A stretch of DNA of 64,000 nucleotides. Source: Promethearchaeota archaeon (GTDB taxonomy: Archaea > Asgardarchaeota > Lokiarchaeia > Sigyniarchaeales > SOKP01). The stretch is from the NCBI GenBank assembly GCA_016840085.1, contig JAEOTA010000018.1:140888-204887 (forward strand). The letters are read 5' to 3'. Positions 15,557 through 62,344 of this stretch are shown piece by piece. The notes beneath the pieces are model-generated. The model was not told the origin of the DNA. It was given only the letters and a program-made list of their open reading frames with translations, and searched no databases. Each line of letters starts with the position of its first letter. Position 1 is the stretch's first letter. The position numbers and the translations under genes were made by a program.

Positions 15557-16891
15557 TTAATAGTCAATTCTAGGAATTGTATCTTCTGTTTCTCTTCGAG
15601 TTGGTTTATATTTGAAAAATCTTCTAGATTCACTATCCTCCAATACATAATTCGACCCTCCACCATGCAGCATGCAATAGGGGTCTAATAAACCTATTTC
15701 ATTTGCATACTGTCGGGTAAATCCACGTCCACCTAAAGTTCTGAAACAATGGATTGCACTTTCAAAGCCAAGTTCTGTAGAACTAATTTTCAAACCCATT
15801 GCATTAGCTGCCATTAATTTTGAACTTCCTGACTCTGGATATTCATCCATTTTTCTTGCATATTGAATCAATGCCGAAAATAACAAGTTTAATTCTCGAA
15901 TTTTTTTAGAAATAGGAAAACGAATCACTTGATATTGATGAAGTCTTTTATCAAATTGCATTCGTTGAAGAGCATAAGCATGAGAATATAGTAATTTTTT
16001 CATAGCATCTCCAAGAGCTTCGGCACTAATAACCAATCGTTCTTCAGTAAGTTGGTGAAAAGCGATATCCAGTCCATGACCATGAAGTAAGTTTTCTTTT
16101 GGTATTTCTACTCTATCAAAGATTAAACGACTCACAAAAGCATCCGTCATACCGTAAGTTCTTACTCTAGCACTTCTAAAATTCTTTAATTGCTGATTTT
16201 CAGTATCAACTACCGTTGCACCCAATTGTCCATTATCCAATCTCCCATATAAAACTATGAAATCAGCAATCATTCCATTTGTAATGAATAACTTCTTACC
16301 TTTTGCAATTAATTTATTATCCTTTTCATATAATCTTAGTTCCATACTAAAGATATCAGAGCCAGCATTAAATTCTGTCATTCCTGAAGCTCCAATTTGA
16401 CCATCTTTGGCAACAGGGACTAAAAATTTCTCTTTTTGCATATTATCAGAAGCATAATTAACGGGATTACAATAAAGCGTTCCGCCAGATAATCTTCCCA
16501 TCTCAATACTATAATTTCCCGCTATATATCTTTCACTATATTCACTCCATCGTCCTCCACAAAGAGCATATGCAATAAGAGCATTTCTTGTAATTCTACC
16601 AATTTCATATTCCTCTGTATTAAGTACTGTAGAGTAATATCCCTTATCAGCTAATTTTTTCATTATTGCAATAACAATTTCTTTTTTCTTCTCCTGAGTT
16701 GGTTCCTCTACAAAATAATTTAAACTCTCTAATTTTCTTAACTCAGGATCTAGTTCTTTTTCCATAAAATCATATAATTCGGCCAAAAACTCTTTTTCTT
16801 TATCATTCAGAACTGGATTATTTAATAAATCTAATTCGGGAACGTATCTTTGGATTCGGATGGGTTCAAACTCAGAAATTCTCGTGTCCAT
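15557..16891 (-). CDS. Acyl-CoA dehydrogenase
   Basis: MTE..AGSD, G.K.FITNG, ERL, R.QF...L..YQ and LGGRGF motifs. Confidence 0.9.
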   Translation of the reverse strand: MDTRISEFEPIRIQRYVPELDLLNNPVLNDKEKEFLAELYDFMEKELDPELRKLESLNYFVEEPTQEKKKEIVIAIMKKLADKGYYSTVLNTEEYEIGRITRNALIAYALCGGRWSEYSERYIAGNYSIEMGRLSGGTLYCNPVNYASDNMQKEKFLVPVAKDGQIGASGMTEFNAGSDIFSMELRLYEKDNKLIAKGKKLFITNGMIADFIVLYGRLDNGQLGATVVDTENQQLKNFRSARVRTYGMTDAFVSRLIFDRVEIPKENLLHGHGLDIAFHQLTEERLVISAEALGDAMKKLLYSHAYALQRMQFDKRLHQYQVIRFPISKKIRELNLLFSALIQYARKMDEYPESGSSKLMAANAMGLKISSTELGFESAIHCFRTLGGRGFTRQYANEIGLLDPYCMLHGGGSNYVLEDSESRRFFKYKPTRRETEDTIPRIDY

Positions 16892-57166: not shown

Positions 57167-58636
57167 TTGATCAATGTGAATAAGGAAGATCTCTATTACA
57201 TTCCCGCATGGGAAATGAAAGAAAAGATAATAAAGCAAGAATTGACTTCAGAGGAATTAACTGAAACAATTATTGAAAGAATTGAAAAAATCAATCCGAT
57301 AATTAATGCTTACTGTTCTACTACATTCGATTTAGCTAGAGATTTAGCAAAAAAAGCTGATACGGCTATTAAAAAGGGTGAAAAATTGGGACTATTACAT
57401 GGTATACCGACTTCTATCAAAGATAATGTTGATGTTAAAGGAATTAGAACTACATGTGGCTGTAAAGCATTTGAAAACTATATTTCTACAGAAGATGATA
57501 TAGCAGTCAAAAGATTGAAGGAAGCGGGCGTGGTTATTTTAGGAAAGACAAACATGCCTGCCTTTGGTTATAAAGGAGTTACTGATAATCTAATTTTTGG
57601 TGCAACGAAAAATCCTTGGCATTTAGAAAGGACTCCAGGAGGATCTACTGGGGGAGGCGCAGCAGCAACAGCTTCTGGATTAAGTCCTTTAACTCAAGGT
57701 TCGGATGGAGGAGGTTCTATCCGAATTCCAAGTAGCTTTTGTGGGTTATATGGTATCAAACCAACTTTTGGACGTATCCCACAAAAATCAATGAAAATAG
57801 AGGGCAATATGGGCACATACGTTCAAAAGGGACCTTTAGTTAGGCATGTAAAAGATGCTGCACTATTTTTAGATGCTTTAGTTGGAGCTGATGATATAGA
57901 CAGATATTCTATACCAAAACCAAATTATAGCTTTTATGATGCAATAGAAGAGAAACCTAAAAAACTTAAAATAGGATATGCAATAGACCTAGGAAATTTA
58001 GAAGTTATTCATTCTGAAGTCGAGAAATCAGTACTAAATGCTGTTAAAAAATTTGAAGAATTCAATTGGTCAGTTGAAAAAAGCAATATTAATCTGTTAT
58101 CAATTGGACATACAATTAGAGGTAATGTGAGTATAGGAAACTATGGATTGACATGGTATACTATATGGACTTATGGAATTGGATACTTTCTCAAACCAAT
58201 AATTGAAGAATTTGGGAGTGTTATGGACCAAGAATTAGTACAAATGGCTCAAAATGGATTCCAACTTACCGCTGAAAATATTTATATGGCAGAAATCCAA
58301 AGGGAAATCATATATGATAATGTATGTAGACATTTTAAAGAATTTGATATTTTAATTACTCCTACCATGGCATGTCCTGCTTTTGAATTAGGTGTATCCT
58401 CCCCAACTAAAATTGATGGGAAGGAGGTTTCCCCAGGAGCCTATTCACCTTATACTCATCCCTTTAATATGAGTGGTCATCCAGCAGCTTCAATTCCTTG
58501 TGGGTGGTCTAAGGATGGTTTACCTATAGGTATGCAAATAGTTGGGAAGAGATTTGATGAGATAACGGTTCTTCAAGTCTCTAAAGCATTCGAAGACGTT
58601 GCCCCTTGGCAAGATAAAAAACCTAAATTTAATTAA
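57167..58636 (+). CDS. Amidase-signature family amidase
   Basis: SIKD, GKTN, GGSTGG and GSDGGGSIR.P motifs. Confidence 0.92.
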   Translation: MINVNKEDLYYIPAWEMKEKIIKQELTSEELTETIIERIEKINPIINAYCSTTFDLARDLAKKADTAIKKGEKLGLLHGIPTSIKDNVDVKGIRTTCGCKAFENYISTEDDIAVKRLKEAGVVILGKTNMPAFGYKGVTDNLIFGATKNPWHLERTPGGSTGGGAAATASGLSPLTQGSDGGGSIRIPSSFCGLYGIKPTFGRIPQKSMKIEGNMGTYVQKGPLVRHVKDAALFLDALVGADDIDRYSIPKPNYSFYDAIEEKPKKLKIGYAIDLGNLEVIHSEVEKSVLNAVKKFEEFNWSVEKSNINLLSIGHTIRGNVSIGNYGLTWYTIWTYGIGYFLKPIIEEFGSVMDQELVQMAQNGFQLTAENIYMAEIQREIIYDNVCRHFKEFDILITPTMACPAFELGVSSPTKIDGKEVSPGAYSPYTHPFNMSGHPAASIPCGWSKDGLPIGMQIVGKRFDEITVLQVSKAFEDVAPWQDKKPKFN

Positions 58637-58675
58637 TTATACTTATTATAAATTTAAATTTGGATCAAGAGAAAA

Positions 58676-60094
58676 ATGAGAAAATATGATATTTGTTTTA
58701 TGTCTGCTTGCGATATGGCAGAGAAAATAAAAAACCAAGAATTATCCTCTGAAGAAATCACTGAAATCATTATTGAAAGGATTGAAAAAACCAATCCAAT
58801 AATTAACGCATATTGTACTACTACATTCGATTTAGGAAGGGAAATGGCTAAAATAGCAGATGAACGAGTAAAGAGAAATGAAAAAATTCCTCTCCTAAAT
58901 GGAATTCCTACTTCTATAAAAGATTTAGTTCCAGTAAAAGGAGTGAGAACTACTTATGGTTCAAAAATTTATGAACATAACATTCCTGAAGATGATGCAA
59001 TTGTCGTTAAACGTTTAAAGGATGATGGTTGCGTAATTTTAGGGAAAACAAATACGCCTGAATTCGGTTTTAAAGGAGTTACTGATAATCTTATTTTTGG
59101 AGTAACACCAAATCCATGGGATCTTGAGAAGACTTCTGGAGGCTCCAGTGGAGGTGCGGCAGCCTCTGTTGTTTCTGGAATGGGCCCTCTAGCTCAGGGT
59201 TCGGATGGAGGAGGTTCTATTCGGCATCCTGCTTGCTTTTGTGGGGCTTATGGTCTTAAACCGAGTTTTGGAAGGGTTCCAATTTATCCAAAAACCAGTC
59301 ATAGCGGTCAAACTTTGTCTGTTATTGGTCCAATTGTAAGATATGTTTCCGATGCAGCATTAATGTTAGATGTTATGAAGGGTCCATTTGAGGGAGATAG
59401 ACATTCATTACCAGAAGATCATATTAAATATTTTGATCATATAAATGAGAAACCAGATAAATTAAAAATTGGGTATACTTTAGATTTAGGTTATGCAAAA
59501 GTTGTAGATGACGAGGTTAAAAAAGCAGTAGTTAATTCAATCCATAAATTTGAATCATTTGGCTGGGAAGTGGAAGAAGCAAAATTTAAGGAGTTCGATC
59601 CTTCCATGGCTTTTAGTACAATGTGGCTAATAATGTTTGGATATGAATTAAAACCTAATTTGAAAGAATGGAAAGATAAAATAGATACCGATTTAGTAAC
59701 TTGGGTTGAAGCGGGATTACGATTTCCAGCATCAAGTCTACCCGATGCTATGAGAATTCGTAGCCAGTTTTATCAATCGATATATGAAACTTTTAAAAAC
59801 TATGATATACTTCTTACTCCATCAACAGCAGTTCCCGCCTTTGAATCAGGGATTACTTACCCATCCAAAATAAATGGGATTGATGTAACTCCCACCGCGT
59901 GGCAAGCATTTACATTTCCATTCAACTTTACAGGACATCCTGCTGCTTCTATTCCTTGTGGATGGACAAATGCCGGTCTACCGATAGGATTACAGATTGT
60001 GGGTAAAAGATTCCAGGAAATGCTAGTTTTACAAGTTTCAAAAGCTTTTGAAGAGAGAGCCCCTTGGCAAGATAAAAAACCAAAGTTTAATTAA
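58676..60094 (+). CDS. Amidase-signature family amidase (tandem paralog)
   Basis: SIKD, GKTNTPEFG, GGSSGG and GSDGGGSIR motifs. Confidence 0.92.
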   Translation: MRKYDICFMSACDMAEKIKNQELSSEEITEIIIERIEKTNPIINAYCTTTFDLGREMAKIADERVKRNEKIPLLNGIPTSIKDLVPVKGVRTTYGSKIYEHNIPEDDAIVVKRLKDDGCVILGKTNTPEFGFKGVTDNLIFGVTPNPWDLEKTSGGSSGGAAASVVSGMGPLAQGSDGGGSIRHPACFCGAYGLKPSFGRVPIYPKTSHSGQTLSVIGPIVRYVSDAALMLDVMKGPFEGDRHSLPEDHIKYFDHINEKPDKLKIGYTLDLGYAKVVDDEVKKAVVNSIHKFESFGWEVEEAKFKEFDPSMAFSTMWLIMFGYELKPNLKEWKDKIDTDLVTWVEAGLRFPASSLPDAMRIRSQFYQSIYETFKNYDILLTPSTAVPAFESGITYPSKINGIDVTPTAWQAFTFPFNFTGHPAASIPCGWTNAGLPIGLQIVGKRFQEMLVLQVSKAFEERAPWQDKKPKFN

Positions 60095-60293: not shown

Positions 60294-60833
60294 TTGAGTA
60301 AAATGGCACGTCCATATCAAAAAGCTAACATTCCTGGTCCTGAGATGGGTACTTCTGTCTCAGATCCAGCGGTGATGGCGAATTTGCTTAAAACACCTAA
60401 AAAGAAGGTGTTCGTTATAGGTGCTGAATCTTTAAATTGGGAACTTGATGGGAAAAAGCTTGCAGATTATTTCATAGAAATTGCAAATAAACTTGATTGT
60501 CATGTAGTCTCAACAGGACATGCATACAAATATTTAAAAGATAAAATTGCTGATAACAAATTGTTCGATATGTCTCTGATAAACATTACAAATCGTTTAT
60601 CTGATAAAGATTGGGCTGGTTTCGATGGAGAAGGACAATATTCTATGGCTATCTTCGGTGGACATATAGTTTTTTACGTCTCTCAAACATTATCTCGACT
60701 CAAGAACTTTACAAATTGGTTAAGAACGATTGATCTAGACAAATATTCTCATCCGAATGCACGATTTAGCTTACCAAATCTAAATGAAGCGGAATGGAAA
60801 GCATTTTTAGAAAATTTGATTGAAAAGTTATAA
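60294..60833 (+). CDS. cdhB: CO dehydrogenase/acetyl-CoA synthase complex subunit epsilon
   Basis: PYQ.ANIPGP, W.GFDG.GQY, YVSQTLS.LKNF and HPNA.FS.PN motifs; directly upstream of cdhC. Confidence 0.9.
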   Translation: MSKMARPYQKANIPGPEMGTSVSDPAVMANLLKTPKKKVFVIGAESLNWELDGKKLADYFIEIANKLDCHVVSTGHAYKYLKDKIADNKLFDMSLINITNRLSDKDWAGFDGEGQYSMAIFGGHIVFYVSQTLSRLKNFTNWLRTIDLDKYSHPNARFSLPNLNEAEWKAFLENLIEKL

Positions 60834-60892
60834 AAGTTAAAATATTAAATATAAATTACCAAAATGAGAATTCAAATGAGGAGATAAATTAT

Positions 60893-62344
60893 ATGAGTTT
60901 TGCAGATTTACCTTTTGATGTAGGACCAGTCTACGAAGGTGAACGTATTAGAGGTAATCAAATGTATATTGAACTTGGTGGGCCTAAGGTCGAGAAGCAT
61001 TTTGAACTCGTGAGAGTGAAGAAAGACAAAGAAATTGAGGATGGGAAGATTACAATCATAGGTCCAAATATTAAAGACATGGAAGAAGGTGGTCGGTATC
61101 CAATTGGTATTTTAGTCGAAGTATCGGGTCCTGAGTTAGAAGAGGATTTAGAAGCAGTGTTCGAGCGTAGAGTTCATGAATTCTGTAATTTCGTGAATGG
61201 CATCATGCATTTGAACCAAAGATATACTAACTGGATGCGACTCTCAAAGTCTCTAATTCAAAAGGGCTTTGATGATCTTACTATGTTAGGGACTGTTCTA
61301 ATTCGATTATACAAAGCAGAATTACCGATTATCAAAAAAGCGCAGGTAACTCTAATAACAGACCCTAAGAAGATTGAAGAACCATACGAGTTTGCCATGG
61401 GTATATACGATAAAAGAGATGAGAGAGCACGAACTATTCATGATGAAGACGTAGATATGTATTACGGTTGTGTACTCTGTCAGTCATTCGCTCCAACGCA
61501 TGCCTGTTGTATTACACCTGATAGAACATCTCTCTGTGGCAGTATTAACTGGTTTGACGCTAGAGCTGCTGCTAAGGTGGACCCTAAAGGACCACAAGAA
61601 ATTGCCAGTTAGGCATTCTGGTTAATTTATGAGGTTCCACCTGGAGAGTGCTTGAATAAAGAAGCAGGTGAATTTTCTGGAGTAAACGAAATGATAAAGA
61701 AACGATCTCTCGGTGAAATCGAAAGAATTTATCTTTATAGCGGAATGGAATTTCCCCATACATCTTGTGGATGCTTTGAGGCTATAGATTTTTTCATACC
61801 TGAAGTGAATGGACACGGAATAGTGGATAGAAATTATGGCACTGTCGCAATAAATGGGCTACCCTTCTCAGCTATGGCAAATCAAACTGGAGGAGGCAAA
61901 CAAATGCCCGGTTTTAATGGTGTGAGCTTCCAGTATATTGGTTCGCCAAAATACCAATTGTATGATGGTTTACAATTGGGTTTTGAAAGCGGCATTTACA
62001 CAATCGTGTGGATGCCAACTACAGTGAAAGAACGAGTGGTAGATTTTCTTCCAGAAGACCTTATTGATAAAATCGCAACAGAAGAGGATGTTCAAGATAT
62101 CAATGAATTAAAGGTATTTCTTAAGGAGAAAAACCATCCTGTAGTGGACACATGGGTAGAGATGGAAGAAGAAGAGGAAGAAGAATGGGAGGAAGAAGGA
62201 GCAATGGTTCCTATGGGAACTGTTGGACTAACAATTCCTGGAGCTGGTGGTGCGGGAGGATTTAAAGTAATTCTTAAGAATTGTAAAGTACACGCCGAAT
62301 CAATAATTATTAAGAAGATCGAGCCTAAACGTAGGAAGAAATAG
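60893..62344 (+). CDS. cdhC: Acetyl-CoA synthase, CODH/ACS subunit beta; interrupted by a candidate 30-nt intron (join 60893..61595, 61626..62344; 473 aa)
   Basis: The two ORF-track pieces are in the same frame. 5' part: YEGERIR, ELGGP, CVLCQSFAPTH.C.ITPDR..LCG. 3' part: PHTSCGCFE, GGG.Q..GF, IVWMP and the acidic linker. A single TAG lies at 61610-61612 inside a 30-nt insertion. Confidence 0.92.
61596..61625 (+). other. Candidate bulge-helix-bulge mRNA intron (30 nt)
   Basis: Central helix GACC 61590-93 / GGUU 61620-23; bulges ACA 61594-96 and AAU 61624-26; intron stems AGAA/UUCU and UGCC/GGCA; exon stem GGUGGACC 61576-83 / GGU(U)CCACC 61633-41; excision restores an open, family-typical sequence. 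Confidence 0.75.

What the first reader, a model, noticed from the sequence alone, without database searches (positions are those of the whole stretch)
61576..61641. Candidate tRNA-type (bulge-helix-bulge) intron in the mRNA of acetyl-CoA synthase cdhC
Seen in sequence: cdhC reads GAC CCT AAA GGA CCA [CAA GAA ATT GCC AGT TAG GCA TTC TGG TTA] ATT TAT GAG GTT CCA CCT GGA, a 10-codon insertion with a TAG, and both halves of the gene are otherwise intact and in frame. The region folds by hand into a complete hBHBh' motif. It has a 4-bp helix GACC(61590-93)/GGUU(61620-23), 3-nt bulges ACA(61594-96) and AAU(61624-26), an intron hairpin AGAA/UUCU + UGCC/GGCA with loop AGUUA, and an exon-exon stem that is weak next to the bulge but ends in GGUGGACC/GGU(U)CCACC. 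Established: archaeal splicing endonuclease (EndA) cuts after the second nt of each bulge and RtcB ligates; such introns are common in tRNA and rRNA but rare in mRNA (crenarchaeal cbf5 is the classic case). That rule removes exactly 61596-61625 (30 nt, including the stop) and gives GGA CCA C|TT TAT GAG = DPKGP-L-YEVPPGECL, matching the CdhC pattern I recall (DPxGP-hydrophobic-aromatic-E-x-x-x-G) and a normal 473-aa length. Inference: this is a spliced protein-coding gene in a probable Asgard archaeon, conceptually similar to non-spliceosomal HAC1/XBP1 splicing. I do not know of a described intron in cdhC but could not search.
Basis: partly seen in the sequence, partly recalled or inferred. Interest (0 to 1): 0.95.

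Follow-up and report, generated by a model that had tools for sequence, protein, structure and literature searches.

The report
tRNA-type mini-intron in Asgard cdhC
The only acetyl-CoA synthase gene of this Loki-type Asgard archaeon is split by a 30-base, stop-containing insert shaped like a tRNA intron, so its messenger RNA very probably has to be cut and rejoined by the tRNA-splicing enzymes, which the papers I could search report inside only one archaeal coding sequence (cbf5).

Summary
Observation confirmed. A 30-nt insert (61596-61625, TAG inside) splits the single cdhC of a Promethearchaeota (Lokiarchaeia) genome. Two separate Logan assemblies carry it letter for letter. The bulge-helix-bulge (BHB) cut rule restores GP-L-Y-E and a 473-aa protein colinear with solved ACS. 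Three other cdhC genes have an insert at the same nucleotide (30, 29, 29 nt). Their sequences differ but the fold is kept (94% paired, 5 compensatory pairs), and the 29-nt ones shift the frame, which excludes readthrough there. In 189 cdhC loci all 16 gene inserts are 29-32 nt with BHB ends, at six sites. The same genome has such inserts in single-copy EF-2 (two), rps3 (two), rpo10 and purA. Both exons are under purifying selection. Best reading (0.9): an EndA/RtcB-spliced mRNA micro-intron, gained or lost repeatedly. Gaps: no RNA data, and the catalytic EndA alpha gene is missing from this assembly together with its neighbour. The scan has reported the same phenomenon before on other DNA (42 notes, at least 25 genomes, other genes).

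The parts
60294..60833 (+). cdhB (ACDS epsilon subunit), upstream neighbour
   Evidence: TIGR00315 over cut-off
60893..61595 (+). cdhC exon 1 (codons 1-234 plus the C of Leu235); carries Cys193/196/205/215, equivalent to Moorella ACS Cys506/509/518/528
61576..61583 (+). 5' arm of distal exon-exon stem (GGUGGACC)
   Evidence: folds; 100% paired in 4 alleles
61590..61593 (+). 5' strand of the 4-bp central helix H (GACC, exon)
   Evidence: pair probabilities 0.90-0.98
61594..61596 (+). 5' bulge ACA; predicted cut between 61595 and 61596
   Evidence: BHB rule plus register test
61596..61625 (+). 30-nt BHB intron with internal hairpin (61597-61619) and in-frame TAG (61610-61612)
61620..61623 (+). 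3' strand of central helix H (GGUU, intron)
61624..61626 (+). 3' bulge AAU; predicted cut between 61625 and 61626
   Evidence: BHB rule plus register test
61633..61641 (+). 3' arm of distal exon-exon stem (GGUUCCACC, one U bulged)
61626..62344 (+). cdhC exon 2 (rest of Leu235 to stop); Cys282-Gly-Cys284 at 61766-61774 corresponds to the Ni-binding Cys595-Gly-Cys597

Best explanation
The insert is a tRNA-type (BHB) intron in the cdhC mRNA. The pre-mRNA folds so that exon GACC pairs with intron GGUU between two 3-nt bulges, braced by the intron hairpin and a strong exon-exon stem (predicted and supported by covariation). The archaeal (alpha-beta)2 splicing endonuclease EndA cuts after the second base of each bulge and RtcB joins the exons (inferred from the established tRNA, rRNA and cbf5 pathway). 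This creates the Leu235 codon and a 473-aa ACS with the whole A-cluster. Unspliced mRNA gives a 239-aa fragment without the Cys-Gly-Cys nickel ligands (shown by sequence). It is one of a class of 29-32-nt mRNA micro-introns in conserved genes of one Lokiarchaeia family. They come and go at a few recurrent sites and are most likely near-neutral passengers kept harmless by a permissive EndA; how they arrive is not resolved.
For: Unique register restoring the nearest relatives' residue. Colinear with solved ACS 9c0s and 1mjg across the junction. Same-site inserts in L137 (29 nt), L219 (29 nt) and L296 (30 nt) with different sequences: 94.2% of cells paired, 5 pairs with two-sided changes, 3/500 shuffles as high, slid controls 24-52%. 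Exon-exon duplex of intron alleles -15.4 to -17.6 kcal/mol against median -5.3 for 145 intronless alleles, none as strong as the three compared directly. 16 of 16 inserts in 189 cdhC loci are 29-32 nt, 15 break the frame, and the BHB register is among the best homology registers in all; the nine with a single best register score 8-12 of 12, while 120 ordinary in-frame insertions have median 6. Single-copy EF-2 of this genome has two stop-containing BHB inserts; one is shared by 13 genomes with 96.9% pairing. rpo10, rps3 and purA are broken the same way. Lineage-specific codon changes in exon 2 are 28 synonymous to 7 non-synonymous. RtcB intact; EndA beta present; about 17 of 24 plausible tRNA genes carry extra sequence, mostly near 30 nt.
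Against: No RNA, cDNA or peptide evidence exists for this or any related locus in what I could reach. The catalytic EndA alpha gene was not found in this assembly; its fixed neighbour MEMO1 is also missing and all five relatives tested have both subunits, so a gap is likely but not proven. The strict exon-side helix next to the 3' bulge is weak (2 bp) and an alternative 5-bp helix register has about equal weight. The four-allele structure count used a structure drawn from the window sequence, which favours it. A structure-only genome scan shows no excess over control geometries.
Confidence: 0.9

Rival explanations
1. Split enzyme: the 239-aa fragment and a second chain started at TTG 61652 (GGAG lies just upstream) assemble into a working ACS without splicing.
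For: Gene callers call both halves; a ribosome-binding-like GGAG precedes TTG 61652; exon 2 is under selection.
Against: Loses residues 235-243 and does not explain the BHB fold, its covariation, the fixed 29-32-nt length, or inserts inside CxxC of cdhC and next to the G1 motif of EF-2.
Confidence: 0.03
2. Dead insertion: cdhC is a recent pseudogene and the fold is incidental.
For: In-frame stop; nearest relatives lack the insert.
Against: Exon 2 is 92-99% identical to its two nearest sisters with 28:7 synonymous to non-synonymous changes; only cdhC copy, with two CdhD/E-family genes in long open frames; the same logic would kill EF-2, rps3 and rpo10; shuffle probability 5e-5.
Confidence: 0.02
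3. The segment is removed at the DNA level (tiny mobile element that excises precisely), so working cells have an uninterrupted gene.
For: Patchy distribution on the tree shows that such inserts are gained or lost often.
Against: No terminal repeats or target duplication at this site; both Logan contigs hold only the interrupted form, though contigs drop rare variants; helix geometry matches an RNA enzyme's substrate.
Confidence: 0.02
4. Recoding: amber readthrough (pyrrolysine or suppression) or ribosomal bypassing of the 30 bases.
For: This insert is in frame and its stop is TAG; a hairpin after a take-off codon is typical of bypass elements (my own knowledge).
Against: No PylS over cut-off; TAG ends 357 of 2352 long ORFs; same-site alleles of 29 nt shift the frame; other inserts use TAA or TGA; no repeated take-off and landing codon gives the conserved GPL.
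Confidence: 0.02

Closest known systems
BHB intron in cbf5 pre-mRNA of Sulfolobales and Desulfurococcales (Watanabe 2002; Yokobori 2009, PMC2738675)
   Same: Short insert inside a coding sequence; borders at the second base of each bulge; often relaxed motif; (alpha-beta)2 EndA; patchy gain and loss.
   Different: cbf5 is one site in one gene and is proven by cDNA and in vitro cleavage. Here there are six sites in cdhC alone and more in EF-2, rps3, rpo10, purA and others, a tight 29-32-nt size, a different phylum, and no RNA proof.
Asgard tRNA introns (PMC11291895; bioRxiv 10.64898/2026.10.13.758758)
   Same: BHB borders, repeated gains, unknown route of arrival, (alpha-beta)2 EndA; this genome's tRNA genes carry inserts of similar size.
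   Different: The passages I searched concern tRNA genes only (the preprint never uses the word mRNA), and its most interrupted classes are Jordiarchaeia and Atabeyarchaeia, not Lokiarchaeia.
BHB element in the 5' UTR of Haloferax HVO_1309 (PMC7714728)
   Same: An mRNA cleaved by EndA at a BHB motif.
   Different: Lies outside the reading frame; not needed to rebuild a codon.
IRE1/RtcB splicing of XBP1 and HAC1 mRNA (PMC13149111; own knowledge)
   Same: Short intron removed without a spliceosome by an endonuclease and a tRNA-type ligase.
   Different: Different nuclease and motif (two stem-loops), and stress-regulated; no regulation is shown here.

Membership tests
Archaeal BHB (EndA/RtcB) intron | 4-bp central helix of exon and intron strands flanked by two 3-nt bulges | tested here: met
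   100% paired in four alleles
Archaeal BHB (EndA/RtcB) intron | Intron-side helix h' | tested here: met
   (5 of 8 pairs with two-sided changes)
Archaeal BHB (EndA/RtcB) intron | Exon-side helix h directly beyond the 3' bulge (strict hBHBh') | tested here: inconclusive
   2 bp possible in all four alleles but 2.9 kcal/mol above the best fold; strong distal stem present
Archaeal BHB (EndA/RtcB) intron | Cutting after the second bulge base restores the functional product | tested here: met
Archaeal BHB (EndA/RtcB) intron | Host encodes EndA able to cut non-canonical substrates | tested here: inconclusive
   beta-like subunit present; alpha and its neighbour MEMO1 absent from the assembly; both subunits in 5 of 5 relatives
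Archaeal BHB (EndA/RtcB) intron | Host encodes RtcB ligase | tested here: met
Archaeal BHB (EndA/RtcB) intron | Spliced RNA or in vitro cleavage demonstrated | not testable with these tools
   no RNA holder listed
cbf5 mRNA intron family | Located in cbf5 at the catalytic Asp codon | tested here: not met
   host gene is cdhC
Group I or II self-splicing intron | Ribozyme core of over 100 nt | tested here: not met
   30 nt; no Rfam match at E up to 1
Amber recoding (pyrrolysine) | PylS in the genome and TAG as the only interrupting codon | tested here: not met

The most novel reading that the evidence does not exclude
Lokiarchaeia of this family run an active population of about 30-nt, endonuclease-spliced mRNA introns that move between sites and lineages and make core genes (carbon fixation, translation, transcription) dependent on splicing. 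This would be the first prokaryotic lineage with many enzyme-spliced introns across its protein-coding genes, in the closest relatives of eukaryotes, and a possible forerunner of RtcB-dependent mRNA splicing.
Probability: 0.6. Interest if true: 0.92.

Novelty: new variant of a known kind. Interest (0 to 1): 0.82.

Why it matters
Published work I could search has one archaeal coding-sequence intron (cbf5). Here the key enzyme of the Wood-Ljungdahl pathway and single-copy essential genes of an Asgard archaeon appear to need mRNA splicing. That bears on how introns could spread through protein-coding genes in the ancestors of eukaryotes, gives a multi-site system for the open question of how BHB introns arrive, and means Lokiarchaeia genomes are mis-annotated: database CdhC fragments end at exactly these sites, so pathways can be scored as broken when they are whole.

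Tried and rejected
No RNA holder listed; this is no evidence either way. Laying four DNA runs did not cover the window's own allele (run X1 only 67% read); it showed one relative about 92% alike without the 30 nt. Exact search for the intron in JGI metagenomes found nothing; no Rfam match. Structure-only and loosely filtered genome scans do not separate BHB from control bulge sizes; only with a gene-break filter is there a modest excess at 27-33 nt (14 against 5, 2, 3), so I give no genome-wide count. A 400-kb sample of a relative (324 orthologues) found only the three introns already known, so density is low. Co-conversion of flanks: synonymous identity drops near the site, but also between two intronless genes, so inconclusive. 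Homology of this intron to the L137 intron or to tRNA introns is not established. Relaxed ARAGORN output was mostly false and was not used. Truncated CdhC in two distant long contigs are breaks without a 30-nt insert. One paper (PMC3064391) was not held; most subscription papers are not searched.

Full report
Observation. The window lies on contig C4 of a 4.68-Mb, 29.5% GC assembly whose nearest cdhC records are titled Promethearchaeota. The gene at 60893-62344 translates as CdhC with ten extra codons and one TAG after DPKGP. All 29 same-genus relatives lack them and read GP-L-[FY]. Of 18 ways to remove 30 nt, only 61596-61625, the register set by the BHB rule, gives Leu. Ile occurs in 19 of 107 homologues, but the four nearest genes have Leu. 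The spliced product is 473 aa, the two halves meet with one HMM position between them, and numbering runs on without a gap against PDB 9c0s and 1mjg. Two Logan assemblies carry the gene with no difference, so this is not an assembly slip.

Structure. The central helix has pair probabilities of 0.90-0.98. The HBh' form equals the minimum-energy fold; forcing the 2-bp exon helix next to the 3' bulge costs 2.9 kcal/mol. One shuffle in 20,000 of the insert reaches the same BHB score, and none with the hairpin energy as well. Relaxed motifs are cut by (alpha-beta)2 EndA, the type reported for Asgard archaea (PMC5829648).

Same site elsewhere. Three other cdhC genes have an insert after the first base of codon 235: L137 (29 nt), L219 from MAG AMARA_1S (29 nt) and L296 (30 nt). 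BHB cutting gives Leu, Ile and Leu. Across the four alleles 94.2% of cells pair, five intron-stem pairs change on both sides, and slid controls pair at 24-52% (the structure came from the window sequence, which biases this upward). All four have an unusually strong exon-exon stem, -15.4 to -17.6 kcal/mol against a median of -5.3 in 145 intronless alleles, built from synonymous codon choices. This excess was clear only at site 235, not at the other sites. The first three alleles do not form a clade (AU p = 0.004) and each has an intronless nearest gene at 86-96% identity; the fourth is likewise nearest to an intronless gene. So the intron was gained several times, transferred, or lost many times. 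My tests could not separate these.

Other sites and genes. In 189 cdhC loci, 14 carry 16 inserts (at least one locus pair is the same genome). All are 29-32 nt, 15 break the frame, and they fall at six codons (104, 194, 235, 280, 320, 327). The BHB register is among the best homology registers in all 16 and is the single best BHB register of 21 in 12. Ordinary in-frame insertions score far lower. Truncated CdhC proteins in the public collection end at the same codons. In this genome the single EF-2 gene has two stop-containing 30-nt inserts; one is shared by 13 genomes with 96.9% pairing and one compensatory pair, the other by four. rpo10 (31 nt, three genomes), rps3 (31 and 30 nt), purA (31 nt) and an acyl-CoA synthetase are interrupted in the same way. 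In the rows listed, such breaks were seen only within the genome's family. Density is low: 324 orthologues gave only the three introns around which the sample was chosen.

Function is kept. Exon 2 is 92-99% identical to its two nearest sisters, with 28 synonymous and 7 non-synonymous lineage-specific changes. cdhC is single-copy and two CdhD/E-family genes lie in long open frames. Unspliced mRNA would give a protein with the iron-sulfur cysteines but without Cys282-Gly-Cys284, the counterpart of the nickel ligands Cys595 and Cys597.

Machinery. RtcB is intact. The one EndA gene found lacks the catalytic His and matches the beta subunit. Five of five relatives have both subunits; the alpha gene and its neighbour MEMO1 are both missing from this assembly, most likely a gap. 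About 17 of 24 plausible tRNA genes carry extra sequence, mostly near 30 nt, so the cell must splice. There is no PylS and TAG is an ordinary stop.

Mechanism. Shown: the insert, its fold by prediction and covariation, the restored frame, selection on both exons. Inferred from the known pathway: EndA cuts at 61595/96 and 61625/26, RtcB ligates, the intron may circularise. Not shown: splicing in vivo, any regulation, the route of arrival. I put the intron reading at 0.9; split protein, pseudogene, DNA excision and recoding share the rest.

Comparison. It works like the crenarchaeal cbf5 intron (PMC2738675) and meets the structural definition of a BHB intron, but it is not a cbf5-family member. 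A 2020 study names cbf5 as the only earlier mRNA case and adds a 5' UTR element in Haloferax (PMC7714728). Asgard intron papers treat tRNAs (PMC11291895; bioRxiv 10.64898/2026.10.13.758758). Nine literature searches found no report of coding-sequence introns in Asgard archaea, within a library that lacks most subscription papers. The scan's own index holds 42 notes on the same phenomenon in at least 25 genomes; these are unchecked leads, and I tested the ones on rps3, rpo10, the acyl-CoA synthetase and EF-2 myself.

Verdict. Real feature, very probably a spliced mRNA micro-intron; new variant of a known kind; interest 0.82, limited by the lack of RNA proof.

Noticed in passing
L035:3145-3174 and L035:3274-3303 (minus strand; G000:C4:16144-16173 and 16273-16302): Two 30-nt stop-containing BHB introns in the only EF-2 gene; shared with 12 and 3 other genomes of the genus.
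   Followed up: yes
L286 (G000:C49:147228-147258, minus): 31-nt BHB insert in purA that restores the GLSWGDEGKGK motif.
   Followed up: partly
L266:1487-1517 and 1577-1606; L272: Two introns in rps3 and one in rpo10; the second rps3 intron has only 2 of 4 central pairs, implying a very relaxed EndA.
   Followed up: yes
L038 (G000:C9:138211-138240, minus), L036 (C24:30582-30611), L037 (C6:13999-14028), L039 (C88:13630-13659): Further 30-nt BHB candidates: AMP-phosphorylase-like (restores DKHSTGG), Rab-like GTPase, acyl-CoA synthetase, and an unidentified gene.
   Followed up: partly
L025, L030 (codon 327) and L108, L177 (codon 320): Introns at two cdhC sites 7 codons apart have clearly similar sequences, suggesting an intron moved between neighbouring sites with a similar exon helix.
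   Followed up: partly
L137, L219, L296: All three other site-235 alleles also carry the codon-194 intron, whereas the window has only the 235 one; L137's 194 intron is in frame and has no stop.
   Followed up: partly
L033:1210-1818; L236:1453-3057: Only the EndA beta-like subunit is in this assembly; in relatives the alpha gene sits divergent to MEMO1, and both are missing here.
   Followed up: yes
window 60294-62344: cdhB-cdhC stand apart from cdhA, cdhD and cdhE; CdhD/E-family genes are on contigs C19 and C11.
   Followed up: partly
window 57167-60094: Two tandem amidase-signature genes with near-identical C-termini directly upstream of cdhB.
   Followed up: no
G000 whole genome: No second EF-2 paralogue was found at E 1e-10, although many genus members show one at about 47% identity.
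   Followed up: no
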